A stretch of DNA of 64,000 nt, taken from positions 35,481 through 99,480 of the forward strand of contig CAZPQG010000002.1 in NCBI GenBank assembly GCA_964588685.1, written 5' to 3'. Of this stretch, positions 22,304 to 47,766 are shown piece after piece (the stretch's first letter is position 1; each line of letters starts with the position of its first letter). Under the pieces are notes generated by a model. The model was not told the origin of the DNA. It searched no databases and worked only from the letters and a program-made list of their open reading frames with translations. This DNA comes from an uncultured Pseudomonadales bacterium. Its GTDB lineage: Bacteria; Patescibacteriota; Microgenomatia; UBA1400; PJMF01. Position numbers and translations under genes: made by a program.

Positions 22304-22903
22304 ATGTCAACATTAACCATCGCACTCATTGTCATTTTAATGATCATTTTTTATGTTGCTTTTGTCTTTAATGCCTTGCAAAAGCTTAAAACTCAAATTG
22401 AAGCCAGCATCCAAGAAATCGGCAATCAATTAAAACGACAGGCTAATTTAATTCCTAATCTGCAAGCGTCTGTTAAAAGTTATATGAAGCAAGAAAAGAA
22501 AATCTTTAAGATGCTAACTGAGGCTCGAAAATCTGTTGCTCAAGCAGAAAATTCCGGCCAAATGGAAGATATTAATGAAGCCATTGATCAAGTACAAAAT
22601 TTAGTGCCGCAATTAAGAGTGGTATTAGAAAGTAATCCGGAGATTAAATCAAACCAAACCATAGTTAAATTTATGAACGAATTAACTGATACGGCTGATA
22701 AATTAACCTATGCTAGACGAAGCTTAATCGATTTAGCTCAAATGTATAATCAAAAATTAGTTACTTTTCCCTCTAATTTAGTAGCTAATATGTTTGGTTT
22801 TGAACGCGAAAAAGGGCTGGAAACAGCCAAAACAGGGGAACATGTCACTGTTTCAGCTGAAGACATGAAAATGCCAAAAGTAGATTTAGATCAGGAAGAA
22901 TAA
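22304..22903 (+). CDS. lemA: LemA family membrane protein
   Basis: N-terminal TM plus LemA domain; the conserved partner htpX lies immediately downstream. Confidence 0.75.
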   Translation: MSTLTIALIVILMIIFYVAFVFNALQKLKTQIEASIQEIGNQLKRQANLIPNLQASVKSYMKQEKKIFKMLTEARKSVAQAENSGQMEDINEAIDQVQNLVPQLRVVLESNPEIKSNQTIVKFMNELTDTADKLTYARRSLIDLAQMYNQKLVTFPSNLVANMFGFEREKGLETAKTGEHVTVSAEDMKMPKVDLDQEE

Positions 22904-23023
22904 GCTTAAACAACAATTTGTAAAATAGCATTTTGAGATTAAAATGCTGGCTTTCAATGTTGTTTTGCCGTTCAATCTTACAATAGGTTGTTGTTTTTTA
23001 TATTTTAAATTTTTATCTTAAAT

Positions 23024-23965
23024 ATGGCAGTCAGTCATTACCAGCGCATCAGTAGCAACAAACGCCGCTCTACTTTAATTGTGGCTTTATTTATTATTTT
23101 TATTGCTGCTGCCAGCTATATTATGACTTTAGCTTTTGGCTACAGTTTAAATATAGTGGCTTATGCCTTAATTTTCTCAGGAATCACGACCTTTGTTAGT
23201 TACTGGTGGTCTGACAAAATAATTTTATCCATTTCCAATGCTGTGCCTGCCAACAGAAAAAATCATTTTGATTTTTACACGACAGTTGAAAATATTGCCA
23301 TTGGGCAAAGAATGCCAATGCCAAAATTGTATGTCATTCATGATACTGCCATCAATGCTTTCGCCACCGGTAGAAATCCCCAAAACGCTGTAGTTTGTGC
23401 CACCACTGGTCTGCTTAATAGGTTAAATCGATCAGAAATCGAAGGAGTAATGGCTCACGAAATGTCTCATGTTCAAAATTATGATATTTTATTGATGTCA
23501 GTTGTGACGATTTTAGTAGGTTTAGTGGCTTTACTTTCAGATTGGTTTTTAAGAATGAGTTTTTTTGGCAGAAGCCGCAATAGTCGTGACAATAAGAGCC
23601 AATTGCAGGCTATTTTAACCATTGTCGGCTTGCTTTTGGCACTTTTATCTCCTCTTATTGCCCAACTAATAAAGCTGGCAATATCACGCCGTAGAGAATT
23701 TTTAGCAGATTCAAGCGCAGTAGCTATGACTAGAAATCCGGAAGGCTTGGCTCGAGCTCTAGCCGCTATTTCTTCTGATCAACAGCCTTTGGAGGCAGCT
23801 AATAAAGCCACAGCCCACCTTTACATAGCTAATCCTCTTAAAAATCACAGAGGCTCACTTGGTTGGTTTGCTAGCTTATTTCAAACTCATCCTCCTATTA
23901 AAGAAAGAATTAAGCATTTAAGAGAATTGTCTATGTCGGAACATGATGCTGCAGCTAATAATTAA
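23024..23965 (+). CDS. htpX: Zinc metalloprotease HtpX (M48)
   Basis: HEMSH zinc motif (VMAHEMSHV), 4 TM segments, C-terminal second zinc-ligand region. Confidence 0.8.
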   Translation: MAVSHYQRISSNKRRSTLIVALFIIFIAAASYIMTLAFGYSLNIVAYALIFSGITTFVSYWWSDKIILSISNAVPANRKNHFDFYTTVENIAIGQRMPMPKLYVIHDTAINAFATGRNPQNAVVCATTGLLNRLNRSEIEGVMAHEMSHVQNYDILLMSVVTILVGLVALLSDWFLRMSFFGRSRNSRDNKSQLQAILTIVGLLLALLSPLIAQLIKLAISRRREFLADSSAVAMTRNPEGLARALAAISSDQQPLEAANKATAHLYIANPLKNHRGSLGWFASLFQTHPPIKERIKHLRELSMSEHDAAANN

Positions 23966-38960: not shown

Positions 38961-41081
38961 TTAAGTGTTATTTTTTTGGATAAAGAGATCAATCAAAAAT
39001 TCTAAATGTTCATCTGCATCTTCCTCAATTAAGTCAAAACCTTTATTAATATCGTCTCTGCTGATGTTAGCAGCAAACGACTTATCGCCCAATTTCTTTT
39101 TAACTTTGCTTGGCTTCATACCCACAAAATCTTTGGGCCTCATCAGAGAATAGGCATATAAAAACCCACTTAATTCATCGCAAGCAAAAAGATAACGATC
39201 AAGCATTGCGCTGGGCTCAACTTTGGTCCTCAAAGGGGCATGAGCTCTCACGGCTTCAATAAGTTCTAAGGGATAATCAGTTAACAACTCTTCGGCTGCC
39301 TTTAACGGGTGCTCATCCGGATATTTTTCCCAATCTAAATCATGCAATAAGCCGGTTTGATACCATAATTCCGGATTTTGTCCTAGTTTCTCAGCATAAG
39401 CTGCTAAAGCTTGAGCAGTCATCAAACAGTGGTGTCTTAAATTTTTATTTTTTATATATTGATGCATTAATTTTGTAGATTCCTCTCGAGTAGGAAGCTC
39501 GACTGCAGCTGAAGCAGCGGCGGTGTTACTAGAGCCAGCTTGCGCATCCTCCTTCTGTTTAACTGCCTTCTCTTGCCCTTGATCAGTTTTTTGATTATTG
39601 ATTTTTTCCGGCTGACGAGGAGCTTGTTGTGAAAACTCAGGTTTTAAAGTTGGAAATGCAATTACTTCTTTAATTGACCAAGTATTAGTTAAAAACATTA
39701 CTAACCGATCAATGCCCATGCCTATTCCTCCTAAAGGCGGCAGGCCGTATTCTAAAGCTCTTAAAAAATCTTCATCAGTCGGATGAGCCTCTTCGTCTCC
39801 GGCTCTCATCTGCTGCTGTTCATTTTTAAAAAGATTTCTCTGATCAATCGGATCTACTACCTCGCTCCAGCCGTCAGCTAACTCTTTGCCGCCGACATAG
39901 GCTTCAAAGCGTTCACAATACCAATCATCTTCGCGGTGAACTTTAGCCAGCGGGCTGACATCACGAGGATAATCAATAATCCATACCGGTTGAATTAATT
40001 TATCTGTGACTAATTTGTCAAACAAATTAAACATTGCTTTGCCACGACTATAACCGCCCGGCAAGTCAATTTCATGTTCAGTTAAAAGTTGTTTGACGGC
40101 TTGATCATCCAACTGTTTAAAATCAATCTCAGCAAACTCTTGCAAAGCATCAATCATCTTAATACGCGGCCAGCTGCCGCTTAAGTCAATACTTGTTTCA
40201 CCGACCATTATTTCATGACTGCCATGAATAACCTGCGTCAGCTCTTGAATCATTTCTTCAGCTATATCCATCATAGTATGATAATCAGCGTAAGCCTGAT
40301 ACCATTCAATCATAGTAAATTCAGGCTGGTGAGTTTGGTCAATACCTTCATTTCTAAAATTACGGGCAATTTCAAAAATCCGTTCATAACCACCTACAAT
40401 CAATCTTTTTAAATATAATTCCGGGGCAATTCGCAAATAAAAATCACTGTCCAAGGCATTCATATTGGTGGAAAACGGACGGGCATTAGTGCCGCCGTAT
40501 ATAGCCTGTAGGACAGGTGTTTCCACTTCAGTGTAATTGTGTTTTTCCTGTAAAAATCGACGCATTTCTTTGAGTATTTTCCAGCGCGTATCTAAAATTT
40601 GGCGGACATCGTCATTAATCAAAATATCTACATATCTTTGACGAAACCGCACCTCTTTATCTTCTGCTGCATTCCATTCAGTCGGAATTGGCCGCAAAGC
40701 TTTGCCTAAAAACTTAAATTTTTCTGCTTGAATAGTTAATTCACCCGCCTTTGTTTTAATGACTTCTCCGCTTACTCCTAGAAAGTCTCCCGGATCTATA
40801 TGCTGCAAAAGTTCAAATTGTTTTTTTGACAACTCGTCTTGGCGAAGCATTACCTGTATAACAGCTGTCGAATCTTTAAGATCTAAAAAAACTACCTTAC
40901 CGTGTGGTCGTTTCGCCATGATTCGACCTGAAGTTTTGGCTTGACCACCCACACCAGTTCCAATAAGCTCTTCAATAGTTTGTTGTTTATCAAAGCTATA
41001 GGGATGAATATCAACGCCTTGATCTTGCAAAGCTTTCCGCTTTTGGATTTTAGCTTTAATAGCAGATTCTAATCTTGACAT
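38961..41081 (-). CDS. lysS: Lysyl-tRNA synthetase (class II) fused to a C-terminal HD-domain phosphohydrolase
   Basis: Residues ~1-480 carry LysRS motifs (FRNEG, GGIGMGIDRL). They are followed by a Q/K-rich linker and an HD core LRHH...LLHDLD (roughly 38961..39550). Confidence 0.85.
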   Translation of the reverse strand: MSRLESAIKAKIQKRKALQDQGVDIHPYSFDKQQTIEELIGTGVGGQAKTSGRIMAKRPHGKVVFLDLKDSTAVIQVMLRQDELSKKQFELLQHIDPGDFLGVSGEVIKTKAGELTIQAEKFKFLGKALRPIPTEWNAAEDKEVRFRQRYVDILINDDVRQILDTRWKILKEMRRFLQEKHNYTEVETPVLQAIYGGTNARPFSTNMNALDSDFYLRIAPELYLKRLIVGGYERIFEIARNFRNEGIDQTHQPEFTMIEWYQAYADYHTMMDIAEEMIQELTQVIHGSHEIMVGETSIDLSGSWPRIKMIDALQEFAEIDFKQLDDQAVKQLLTEHEIDLPGGYSRGKAMFNLFDKLVTDKLIQPVWIIDYPRDVSPLAKVHREDDWYCERFEAYVGGKELADGWSEVVDPIDQRNLFKNEQQQMRAGDEEAHPTDEDFLRALEYGLPPLGGIGMGIDRLVMFLTNTWSIKEVIAFPTLKPEFSQQAPRQPEKINNQKTDQGQEKAVKQKEDAQAGSSNTAAASAAVELPTREESTKLMHQYIKNKNLRHHCLMTAQALAAYAEKLGQNPELWYQTGLLHDLDWEKYPDEHPLKAAEELLTDYPLELIEAVRAHAPLRTKVEPSAMLDRYLFACDELSGFLYAYSLMRPKDFVGMKPSKVKKKLGDKSFAANISRDDINKGFDLIEEDADEHLEFLIDLFIQKNNT

Positions 41082-46782: not shown

Positions 46783-47101
46783 GTAGGTTTAAAAATATTT
46801 AATAAGTAGATTGACATAATTATTTACTGCAAATACTCATGGTAAATATAAACAATCCTATAACAAAAGGGTTAAGCAGTTTTTTGCCACCACCTTATTT
46901 ATTAAAACAAAATTTATTAATTTATGTTAGAGCAATACTAAAACTAAAGCCAATTCAAACTGCTGCTAATTCTAGTTAGTTAATAATTAAAAGGTAATTT
47001 TAAAGCTAAAAAGATACGGGATTTTTCAAAACCTTTATTTTTCAATGAACTATTAACAGCTATTATTAGCAGCTAAATTAACAGGTGGTTTTCTCTTAAA
47101 A

Positions 47102-47171
47102 TTAGCAACTCTTGACACTGTCTGCTAATTTGCTATATTAAAAATTAGCAATTATAAATTACAACTGCTAA
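47102..47171 (+). promoter_or_regulatory. Two TTAGCA-N15-TGCTAA (CIRCE-geometry) inverted repeats overlapping and following a TTGACA-16-TATATT promoter for hsp20; a third compact palindrome TTAGCAGCTAA lies at 47066..47076
   Basis: Sites at 47102-47128 and 47145-47171; -35 at 47112-47117; -10 at 47134-47139; AAAGG SD at 47181-47185. Confidence 0.6.
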
Positions 47172-47192
47172 TCTGCAGTGAAAGGCTTAACC

Positions 47193-47609
47193 ATGGATTT
47201 AATTCCATTCCAACCACTACAAATGTTAAATCGTTGGCCAGATTTTTGGGATGATCAAGATTGGCCTTTAACTACACAAGGATCTAATAACTTAGATCTT
47301 TATGAAACAGAAGATGAAATTGTGATTAAAACGAATGTAGCAGGAGTAGACGCTAATGATATTGATTTAACCTTTGAGGACGGAGTACTCTGGGTTAAAG
47401 CTGATAAGGTGGAAGAAAAAACTGATGAAGAAAAAAAACATTATGCTAAATCAGCTTGGAGTTATTCATATAAGATAGCTGTTCCGGGAAAAATTGACCC
47501 CAGTAAAGAACCTGCTGCTGAAGTTGAAAATGGCATTTTAACTGTTACTTTTGAGAAGGCTGAAATTTCTAAGCCTAAAAAACTCAAGGTAACTGCTAAG
47601 GAAAAGTAG
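47193..47609 (+). CDS. Small heat-shock protein (Hsp20/alpha-crystallin family)
   Basis: Alpha-crystallin-domain pattern (LDLYETEDEIVIK...GVLWVKADK...ENGILTV). ATG at 47193 is preferred over GTG at 47178 because of the SD spacing. Confidence 0.8.
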   Translation: MDLIPFQPLQMLNRWPDFWDDQDWPLTTQGSNNLDLYETEDEIVIKTNVAGVDANDIDLTFEDGVLWVKADKVEEKTDEEKKHYAKSAWSYSYKIAVPGKIDPSKEPAAEVENGILTVTFEKAEISKPKKLKVTAKEK

Positions 47610-47766
47610 CTTGGAATAAAGAGGCTAGAGCAGTTGGTGCATCAAAAACAAGCTAGCCACGCTCTAGCCTTTTTTTTGTTTATATTTTTATGATCATAGT
47701 ATCTATTGGCATTAATTTTTTATTAATCAGTCATTTTTATTTGCTTTGCTTCGCTATTGTTCATTT

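What the first reader, a model, noticed from the sequence alone, without database searches (positions are those of the whole stretch)
47060..47175. CIRCE-geometry operator array overlapping the hsp20 promoter
Upstream of the small heat-shock gene there is a near-consensus sigma70-type promoter (TTGACA-16 nt-TATATT). It is overlapped by TTAGCA-N15-TGCTAA (47102-47128). A second TTAGCA-N15-TGCTAA (47145-47171) covers the predicted transcription start and leader. A compact TTAGCAGCTAA palindrome lies at 47066-47076. The outer hexamers and the 15-nt spacing equal those of the HrcA CIRCE element (TTAGCACTC-N9-GAGTGCTAA), but the inner three positions do not match. This argues for a heat-shock operator for an HrcA-like repressor, possibly with altered inner-arm specificity.
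Basis: partly seen in the sequence, partly recalled or inferred. Interest (0 to 1): 0.55.

Follow-up and report, generated by a model that had tools for sequence, protein, structure and literature searches.

The report
Twin HrcA-type operators on hsp20 promoter
[quoted passage not shown] This is an expected kind of regulation, seen here in a little-studied lineage with its own variant of the site.

Summary
Window 47102-47128 and 47145-47171 are both exact (A)TTAGCA-N15-TGCTAA(T). They are the only such sites in 64 kb (0.02 expected). The first contains the -35 box of a near-consensus promoter (TTGACA-16-TGnTATATT). The second covers the predicted start site and leader of a monocistronic hsp20 gene.

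The window comes from a Patescibacteria (Microgenomatia-like) genome. The same two-site layout is conserved upstream of hsp20 in 34 of 61 related loci. The clade consensus is TTAGCA(G/A)TC-N9-GA(C/T)TGCTAA. That is CIRCE with position 7 changed, not a different motif.

In relatives the same element precedes hrcA-grpE-dnaK and groES-groEL. More distant hsp20 promoters carry canonical CIRCE at the same place. An exact scan for the "-35 inside the spacer" design in metagenomes hit mostly hrcA, groES and groEL promoters.

The HrcA/CIRCE reading is therefore well supported, although hrcA of this genome could not be inspected. The third element (TTAGCAGCTAA, 47066) is not conserved.

A side finding is a covarying 5'-UTR hairpin that pairs the right arm of site 2 with GCAGT just before the ribosome-binding site.

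Verdict: an ordinary mechanism and a lineage variant of a known kind, of modest interest.

The parts
47102..47128 (.). Operator 1: TTAGCAACT-CTTGACACT-GTCTGCTAA, a CIRCE-geometry inverted repeat with the -35 hexamer inside its spacer (7-nt arms if 47101 and 47129 are included)
   Evidence: Conserved with the same register (TTAGCA-N4-TTGACA-N5-TGCTAA) in 40 related hsp20 promoters. The same design sits upstream of hrcA/groES/groEL in metagenomes.
47112..47139 (+). Sigma-70-type promoter: -35 TTGACA (47112-17), 16-nt spacer, extended -10 TGcTATATT (47131-39); predicted transcription start about 47146
   Evidence: 11 of 12 matches, TG present. Equivalent -35 and -10 boxes are seen in relatives. 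The start site is inferred from spacing, not measured.
47145..47171 (.). Operator 2: TTAGCAATT-ATAAATTAC-AACTGCTAA, covering the predicted start site and the first ~26 nt of the leader
   Evidence: An equivalent site is found in 53 related loci, consensus TTAGCA(G/A)TC-N9-GA(C/T/G)TGCTAA. Highest weight-matrix score in the window.
47164..47179 (+). 5'-UTR hairpin ACUGC-UAAUCU-GCAGU: the right arm of operator 2 pairs with the bases just 5' of the ribosome-binding site
   Evidence: Present in both the minimum-energy and centroid folds. 13 of 53 loci have an exact 5-mer complement against 1.4 expected. Pair 20-42 is A-U in 5 and U-A in 5 sequences.
47180..47185 (+). Ribosome-binding site GAAAGG, 7 nt before the ATG
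   Evidence: Read from the sequence. (G/A)AAAGG or GGAGG occupies the same place in relatives. It is unpaired in the centroid fold.
47193..47609 (+). hsp20 (138 aa small heat-shock protein, alpha-crystallin domain), monocistronic
   Evidence: Pfam HSP20, E 2e-13. 63 homologues, the named ones from Patescibacteria. The neighbouring genes on either side are on the opposite strand.
47652..47677 (+). Intrinsic terminator-like hairpin GCTAGCC-ACG-CTCTAGC followed by a T run, ending the hsp20 transcript
47066..47076 (.). TTAGCAGCTAA: a lone TTAGCA half-site inside a short palindrome; probably not part of the conserved operator
   Evidence: Present in the sequence. No partner half-site at N15, and no counterpart in relatives.

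Best explanation
The region holds two tandem, diverged CIRCE operators for the heat-shock repressor HrcA, placed on the sigma-70-type promoter of a monocistronic hsp20 gene in a Patescibacteria (Microgenomatia-like) bacterium.

Proposed mechanism: at normal temperature an HrcA dimer on operator 1 occludes the -35 box, which lies inside the operator's spacer. A second dimer on operator 2 covers the start site and early leader. The centres are 43 bp apart, about four helical turns. RNA polymerase is therefore blocked twice. On heat shock HrcA loses activity (in model organisms because GroEL/ES is titrated away by unfolded proteins) and hsp20 is transcribed from a strong promoter.

The lineage uses its own CIRCE variant, TTAGCA(G/A)TC-N9-GA(C/T)TGCTAA. 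The window's sites are further degenerate at the inner three positions.

Shown here: the sites, their uniqueness in the window, their conservation, and their link to hrcA-dnaK and groESL promoters in relatives. Inferred: HrcA binding, repression, heat induction, the GroE titration step, and the presence of hrcA in this particular genome.
For: Exact geometry and uniqueness in the window. hsp20 identity and promoter.

Conservation: 34 of 61 Patescibacteria hsp20 loci have both sites, 37-47 bp apart (mode 42). The outer hexamers are near-invariant, and T8, G19 and A20 follow canonical CIRCE.

Regulon link: of 89 hits (one mismatch or fewer) in 1.3 Mb of relatives' DNA, about 80 are at hsp20. The others include hrcA-grpE-dnaK (L045, L053) and groES-groEL (L051, L049). 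Four hrcA operons fetched without reference to the motif all carry TTGACA-N4-TTAGCAGTC-N9-TA(G/T)TGC(T/c)A(A/g).

The regulator in relatives is a true HrcA: Pfam PF01628 at 62 bits, N-terminal domain aligned to T. maritima HrcA 1STZ at E 7e-16, and a predicted structure (pLDDT 89.6) whose best PDB match is 1STZ.

Canonical TTAGCACTC-N9-GAGTGCTAA sits at the same place before hsp20 in more distant Patescibacteria, Chlamydiae and Verrucomicrobia (L058, L059, L063, L064, L076-78).

An exact scan for TTAGCA-N4-TTGACA-N5-TGCTAA in metagenomes gave 120 stretches. The downstream gene was hrcA in 29, groES in 20, groEL in 19 and hsp20 in 4; several of the rest read as ClpB on my inspection of the sequence.

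The operator arms are conserved as sequence, not as base pairs: no covariation, and the inner positions pair in only 5-7 of 12 sequences. That fits protein binding.

Literature: CIRCE before small heat-shock genes (PMC3179173; hsp1 in PMC3842655) and two CIRCE copies in one promoter (PMC3842655, PMC13284173).
Against: No hrcA, groESL or dnaK lies in the 64-kb window, and the rest of this genome could not be read. Presence of the repressor and of the regulon in this organism is therefore inferred from relatives (Hsp20 49-56% identical in the loci that also hold hrcA or groESL).

The inner triplets of the window's sites (ACT/GTC and ATT/AAC) match neither canonical CTC/GAG nor fully the clade consensus GTC/GAC, so affinity for HrcA could be low.

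The closest relatives (L003, L004) have a mismatch in the left arm of site 1 (TCAGCA).

There is no binding or expression data of any kind.
Confidence: 0.85

Rival explanations
1. The repeats act mainly at the RNA level. The leader folds into a regulatory structure (RNA thermometer or stability element), and the DNA symmetry is a by-product.
For: Operator 2 is transcribed. A hairpin that uses its right arm (47164-47179) is conserved with compensatory changes and appears in the minimum-energy and centroid folds. From my own knowledge, CIRCE in B. subtilis has been reported to affect mRNA stability as well.
Against: Operator 1 lies upstream of the predicted start site and cannot be RNA. The two arms of each operator show no covariation, and their inner positions often do not pair. 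The ribosome-binding site stays unpaired, and the fold is only modestly better than shuffles (z -1.9). No Rfam thermometer family matched. The hairpin is found in only about a quarter of loci, whereas the operator is found in most. This reading is best seen as an added layer, not a replacement.
Confidence: 0.1
2. The sites bind a different, unidentified dimeric regulator that recognises TTAGCA half-sites two helical turns apart, not HrcA.
For: The inner arm positions of the window's sites do not match CIRCE. hrcA was not seen in this genome.
Against: The same motif marks hrcA-grpE-dnaK and groESL promoters in relatives, which is the defining HrcA regulon. There is a graded series from canonical CIRCE to the window's form at the same promoter position. 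No regulator gene is linked to hsp20 in the window or in relatives. No HspR (HAIR) or CtsR boxes occur in the intergenic region at up to 4 mismatches.
Confidence: 0.04
3. Chance similarity in AT-rich intergenic DNA.
For: TTAGCA itself occurs at the expected frequency in the window (71 observed, 70 expected).
Against: Expected exact pairs 0.02 against 2 observed, adjacent to each other. The sites are conserved in register in dozens of loci whose surrounding sequence has diverged.
Confidence: 0.01

Closest known systems
CIRCE / HrcA class I heat-shock operator (TTAGCACTC-N9-GAGTGCTAA), as in Bacillus, lactobacilli, Chlamydia and Streptomyces
   Same: Identical outer hexamers and 27-bp geometry. 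Placed on a sigma-70-type promoter and start site of a chaperone gene. In relatives the same element precedes hrcA-grpE-dnaK and groESL, and a true HrcA is encoded.
   Different: The inner three positions of the window's sites do not match. The clade consensus has G or A instead of C at position 7, with C or T opposite. The lineage's HrcA is about 240 aa instead of about 340 aa.
CIRCE-controlled small heat-shock genes of lactobacilli (L. acidophilus hsp16, PMC3179173; L. plantarum hsp1, PMC3842655)
   Same: A small heat-shock gene with its own promoter carrying a CIRCE element; predicted HrcA control.
   Different: Those carry a canonical CIRCE (hsp1 also has a CtsR box). Here there are two diverged copies and no CtsR box.
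Promoters with two CIRCE copies (L. plantarum hrcA, PMC3842655; Streptomyces groES1 and groEL2, PMC13284173)
   Same: Tandem operators for the same repressor in one promoter region.
   Different: Here one copy encloses the -35 hexamer in its spacer and the other covers the start site. The target is hsp20 rather than groE or dnaK.

Membership tests
CIRCE (HrcA operator) | Inverted repeat with outer arms TTAGCA / TGCTAA in a 9+9+9 (27-bp) geometry | tested here: met
   Two exact matches at 47102-47128 and 47145-47171. Consensus as quoted in PMC3842655 and PMC3179173.
CIRCE (HrcA operator) | Inner arm positions 7-9 / 19-21 = CTC / GAG | tested here: not met
   The window has ACT/GTC and ATT/AAC. 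The clade consensus is (G/A)TC / GA(C/T): T8 in 50/53, G19 in 39/53, A20 in 42/53, but C7 in only 4/53. Hence filed as a variant, not a canonical member.
CIRCE (HrcA operator) | Located at the vegetative promoter or start site of a chaperone gene | tested here: met
   Overlaps the -35 box and the predicted +1 of hsp20.
CIRCE (HrcA operator) | Same element upstream of hrcA-grpE-dnaK and groESL in the same genome | not testable with these tools
   These genes are not in the window, and the rest of the genome was not retrievable. Met in relatives: L045, L053, L203, L209-L211 (hrcA operon) and L051, L049 (groESL).
CIRCE (HrcA operator) | An HrcA repressor is encoded | not testable with these tools
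   Not in the window. Relatives encode a 240-aa HrcA (PF01628 at 62 bits; 1STZ by sequence at E 7e-16 and by fold, TM 0.78 over the query).
CIRCE (HrcA operator) | HrcA binds the site and represses; derepression on heat shock | not testable with these tools
   Needs gel shift or DAP-seq and transcript measurements.
HspR / HAIR and CtsR operators | CTTGAGT-N7-ACTCAAG, or tandem GGTCAAA repeats, in the promoter region | tested here: not met
   No match with up to 4 mismatches in 46783-47192.
RNA thermometers (ROSE, fourU and other Rfam families) | Leader structure that sequesters the ribosome-binding site; match to a curated model | tested here: not met
   No Rfam hit other than tRNAs. The ribosome-binding site is unpaired in the centroid fold.

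The most novel reading that the evidence does not exclude
Microgenomatia carry a re-specified HrcA/CIRCE pair: a minimal ~240-aa HrcA, and an operator with G or A instead of C at position 7 and relaxed inner arms. In the window's subclade the right arm of the start-site operator also forms one strand of a covarying 5'-UTR hairpin next to the ribosome-binding site. The same bases would then serve both the DNA-level repressor and an RNA-level control of hsp20 mRNA stability or translation.
Probability: 0.2. Interest if true: 0.5.

Novelty: new variant of a known kind. Interest (0 to 1): 0.3.

Why it matters
It gives a concrete, testable picture of heat-shock control in Patescibacteria, a large uncultivated group for which I found no paper on HrcA. 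That picture covers the lineage's CIRCE consensus, its likely regulon (hsp20, hrcA-grpE-dnaK, groESL, ClpB and one unknown protein) and a compact HrcA. The consensus can be used to annotate regulons in these reduced genomes. The mechanism itself is the classical one, so the gain is in coverage and detail, not in concept.

Tried and rejected
1. I tried to find the source contig beyond the window through the exact Hsp20 sequence. Only two short Logan contigs identical to the window came back, so hrcA of this genome stayed out of reach.

2. I considered the third element (TTAGCAGCTAA, 47066) and the half-site at 46964 as parts of the array. Rejected, because they are not conserved.

3. I considered helical phasing of the two operators as evidence of cooperativity. 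The spacing in relatives spreads over 37-47 bp and is set by promoter geometry, so this is not used as evidence.

4. I tested whether the CIRCE arms behave as an RNA stem. They show no covariation.

5. I considered an RNA thermometer. The ribosome-binding site is unpaired and no Rfam family matches.

6. I considered whether the short HrcA form explains the variant inner arms. Rejected, because hrcA genes of about 236 aa are also preceded by canonical CTC/GAG CIRCE (for example L090, L112, L120).

7. A literature search for the strings TTAGCAGTC and GACTGCTAA returned only unrelated primer and oligonucleotide hits.

8. A start-codon hairpin ATGGA...TCCAT (47193-47208) is predicted, but it is confounded by the conserved M-D-L-I/V-P-F coding sequence and is broken in L003. 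Not pursued.

Full report
OBSERVATION

The two full sites are TTAGCAACTCTTGACACTGTCTGCTAA at 47102-47128 and TTAGCAATTATAAATTACAACTGCTAA at 47145-47171. Both are flanked so that the perfect arms are 7 nt long (ATTAGCA / TGCTAAT).

The promoter scan gives TTGACA (47112) - 16 nt - TATATT (47139), with a TG that makes an extended -10. This is 11 of 12 consensus matches and the best site in the region. The -35 hexamer therefore sits inside the spacer of site 1. Site 2 begins 5 nt after the -10 box, so it covers the predicted start (about 47146) and the first ~26 nt of a 47-nt leader.

The gene is a 138-aa Hsp20/alpha-crystallin protein (47193-47609; Pfam E 2e-13). It has a GAAAGG ribosome-binding site and its own terminator-like hairpin (47652-47668). 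Its neighbours on both sides are on the opposite strand.

IS IT MORE THAN CHANCE?

- TTAGCA alone is not enriched in the window (71 observed, 70 expected).
- The paired pattern occurs only at these two places, even with one mismatch allowed.
- From hexamer counts the expected number of exact pairs is 0.02. None of 300 Markov simulations had two.
- A weight matrix built only from relatives' sites scores these two places 20-23 bits. Nothing else in the window scores above 14.1.

WHERE THE WINDOW COMES FROM

The window holds housekeeping genes: ftsZ/ftsA, murein synthesis genes, secA, dnaE, several aminoacyl-tRNA synthetases, efp, greA, enolase, CTP synthase and lexA. GC content is about 36%.

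The Hsp20 homologues come from Patescibacteria. Those records that carry a sensible name are Pacebacteria, Woesebacteria or Microgenomates.

No hrcA, groES/EL, dnaK, grpE or clpB is in the window. The exact-sequence look-up returned only two short contigs identical to the window. The rest of this genome could therefore not be examined.

COMPARATIVE EVIDENCE AT hsp20

Eighty hsp20 loci were fetched from species-representative genomes. In them the pattern TTAGCA-N15-TGCTAA (one mismatch or fewer) occurs 89 times in 1.3 Mb, and about 80 of these hits lie within 180 nt upstream of hsp20.

Among 61 Patescibacteria loci:

- 40 have a site-1 equivalent in the same register, TTAGCA-N4-TTGACA-N5-TGCTAA.
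- 53 have a site-2 equivalent.
- 34 have both, 37-47 bp apart with a mode of 42; the window's sites are 43 bp apart.

The site-2 consensus is TTAGCA(G/A)TC-N9-GA(C/T/G)TGCTAA. T8 (50/53), G19 (39/53), A20 (42/53) and C9 (25/53) agree with canonical CIRCE, TTAGCACTC-N9-GAGTGCTAA. The systematic difference is position 7, which is G in 30, A in 19 and C in 4, together with its partner position 21.

At clade level, however, the element is recognisably CIRCE with one position changed and relaxed inner arms.

More distant hsp20 promoters carry near-canonical CIRCE at the same place. These are L058, L059, L063 and L064, Saccharibacteria L067, and Chlamydiae and Verrucomicrobia L076-L078. This gives a graded series.

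LINK TO THE HrcA REGULON

The few hits in relatives' flanks that are not at hsp20 are informative.

- In L045 and L053 the site sits directly upstream of an hrcA-grpE-dnaK operon.
- In L051 it sits about 80 nt before groES-groEL.
- In L049 two sites flank the groES promoter, one of them overlapping the -35 box.
- In L020 and L059 it precedes a conserved 168-197-aa protein of unknown function.

To avoid selecting on the motif, I fetched four further hrcA operons through the HrcA protein alone (L203, L209, L210, L211). All four read TTGACA-N4-TTAGCAGTC-N9-TA(G/T)TGC(T/c)A(A/g) in front of hrcA-grpE-dnaK(-dnaJ). The left arm TTAGCAGTC, with G at position 7, is thus the lineage's form in its core regulon as well.

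The first downstream gene was hrcA in 29, groES in 20, groEL in 19 and hsp20 in 4. Of the 48 left unclassified by my crude test, several read as ClpB and one as an RpoH-like sigma factor; that assignment is my reading of the sequences, without a Pfam check.

Placing the -35 box inside the CIRCE spacer is therefore a widespread HrcA-regulon promoter design. Microgenomates-like groES promoters in that set (L150, L157, L187, L192) also have non-canonical inner triplets, as the window does.

THE REGULATOR IN RELATIVES

The hrcA product of L045 is 240-244 aa. It matches Pfam HrcA (62 bits; the DNA-binding model is borderline at 20.2 against a cutoff of 21). Its N-terminal 97 residues align to T. 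maritima HrcA 1STZ at E 7e-16, with the helix ATIRNxM conserved.

A model built from 30 homologues (pLDDT 89.6, pTM 0.85) finds 1STZ as by far the best PDB match. TM is 0.78 over the query and 0.61 over the target. The protein is thus a compact HrcA lacking roughly 90-100 residues of the T. maritima protein. I infer, but did not map, that the missing part is the inserted dimerising domain.

The short form does not by itself explain the variant operator. Short HrcA genes are also preceded by canonical CIRCE (for example L090, L112 and L120).

MECHANISM

The sites, their conservation and their regulon context are shown. The following is inferred from established knowledge of HrcA/CIRCE in Bacillus, Chlamydia and others (summarised in PMC3842655). 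HrcA dimers occupy both operators at normal temperature. One blocks recognition of the -35 box and the other blocks the start site. Inactivation of HrcA on heat shock frees a near-consensus promoter.

The arms are conserved as sequence and not as pairs: there is no covariation, and the inner positions pair in only 5-7 of 12 sequences. This fits protein recognition of DNA.

No HspR or CtsR boxes are present, and no Rfam element other than tRNAs was found.

A SECOND LAYER: THE 5'-UTR HAIRPIN

The right arm of site 2 is complementary to the bases just 5' of the ribosome-binding site. In the window this is ACTGC-TAATCT-GCAGT at 47164-47179.

- An exact 5-mer complement is present in 13 of 53 leaders against 1.4 expected from shuffles.
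- It changes in step with the arm: tCTGC pairs with GCAGa in 7 loci, aCTGC with GCAGt in 5 (including the window), and aGTGC with GCACt in L064.
- The window's closest relatives, L003 and L004, have the T...A form while the window has A...T.
- On an alignment of 12 leaders the pair is A-U in 5 and U-A in 5. 81% of cells are paired, against 24-51% when the partner column is slid. 6 of 500 shuffles reach the observed covariation score.
- The stem survives insertions of about 35-50 nt in the loop (L008, L015). This argues for RNA pairing rather than a spaced protein half-site.
- The stem appears in the minimum-energy and centroid folds of the window's leader. The ribosome-binding site is left unpaired, and the overall z-score is only -1.9.

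The function of the hairpin is unknown. A role in mRNA stability or translation efficiency seems more likely than a thermometer. The evidence is moderate and the sequences are related to one another.

COMPARISON WITH WHAT IS KNOWN, AND NOVELTY

- CIRCE before small heat-shock genes is described in lactobacilli (PMC3179173; hsp1 in PMC3842655).
- Two CIRCE copies in one promoter are described for L. plantarum hrcA and for Streptomyces groES1 and groEL2.
- I found no paper dealing with HrcA in Patescibacteria or the candidate phyla radiation in the searchable library.
- I found no mention of the TTAGCAGTC form in a CIRCE context.

The finding is therefore a lineage variant of a well-known system. 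It is useful for annotating regulons in these reduced genomes and is not conceptually new.

They should not be counted as part of the operator.

Noticed in passing
window 47164-47179 (and the leaders of L003-L005, L008-L010, L015, L016, L020, L022, L038, L064): A conserved 5'-UTR hairpin pairs the right arm of operator 2 with GCAG(A/T) just before the ribosome-binding site. It shows compensatory A-U/U-A changes (also G-C in L064) and tolerates long loop insertions. Function unknown.
   Followed up: partly
L045 4159-4893 (-); proteins P0066-P0185: HrcA in Microgenomates-like genomes is only about 240 aa, against about 340 aa in T. maritima. The predicted structure matches 1STZ but lacks roughly 90-100 residues, possibly the inserted dimerising domain. 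The short form also occurs with canonical CIRCE, so it does not explain the variant site.
   Followed up: partly
L020 819-1465 and L059 1382-2197: A conserved protein of 168-197 aa with no Pfam family (61% identical between the two loci) is preceded by a CIRCE-type site. It is a candidate new HrcA-regulon member in Patescibacteria.
   Followed up: no
L083-L202 (metagenome contigs): CIRCE with the -35 hexamer TTGACA inside its 9-nt spacer is a widespread promoter design. It occurs upstream of hrcA, groES and groEL, of genes that read as ClpB (L106, L166, L194, L113), and of one RpoH-like sigma factor gene (L163). One recurrent form, TTAGCACTCATTGACAGGGAGTGCTAA, precedes groEL directly.
   Followed up: partly
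window 38961-41081 (-): The class II (Asp/Lys/Asn-type) aminoacyl-tRNA synthetase carries a C-terminal HD domain (705 aa; Pfam tRNA-synt_2 plus HD). This is an unusual fusion.
   Followed up: no
window 22304-23965 (+): A LemA plus M48 (HtpX-like) peptidase gene pair. HtpX is heat-inducible in other bacteria, but no CIRCE-like site scores above background anywhere near it.
   Followed up: partly
window 47193-47208: The start codon can pair with codons 4-6 (ATGGA-TTTAAT-TCCAT), and this pairing appears in the predicted fold. It is confounded by the conserved MDL(I/V)PF coding sequence and is broken in L003.
   Followed up: partly
L003-L059 record titles: Many of the related MAG records are titled 'uncultured Pseudomonadales bacterium' although their content and relatives are Patescibacteria. 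The titles look like a labelling artefact of those assemblies.
   Followed up: no
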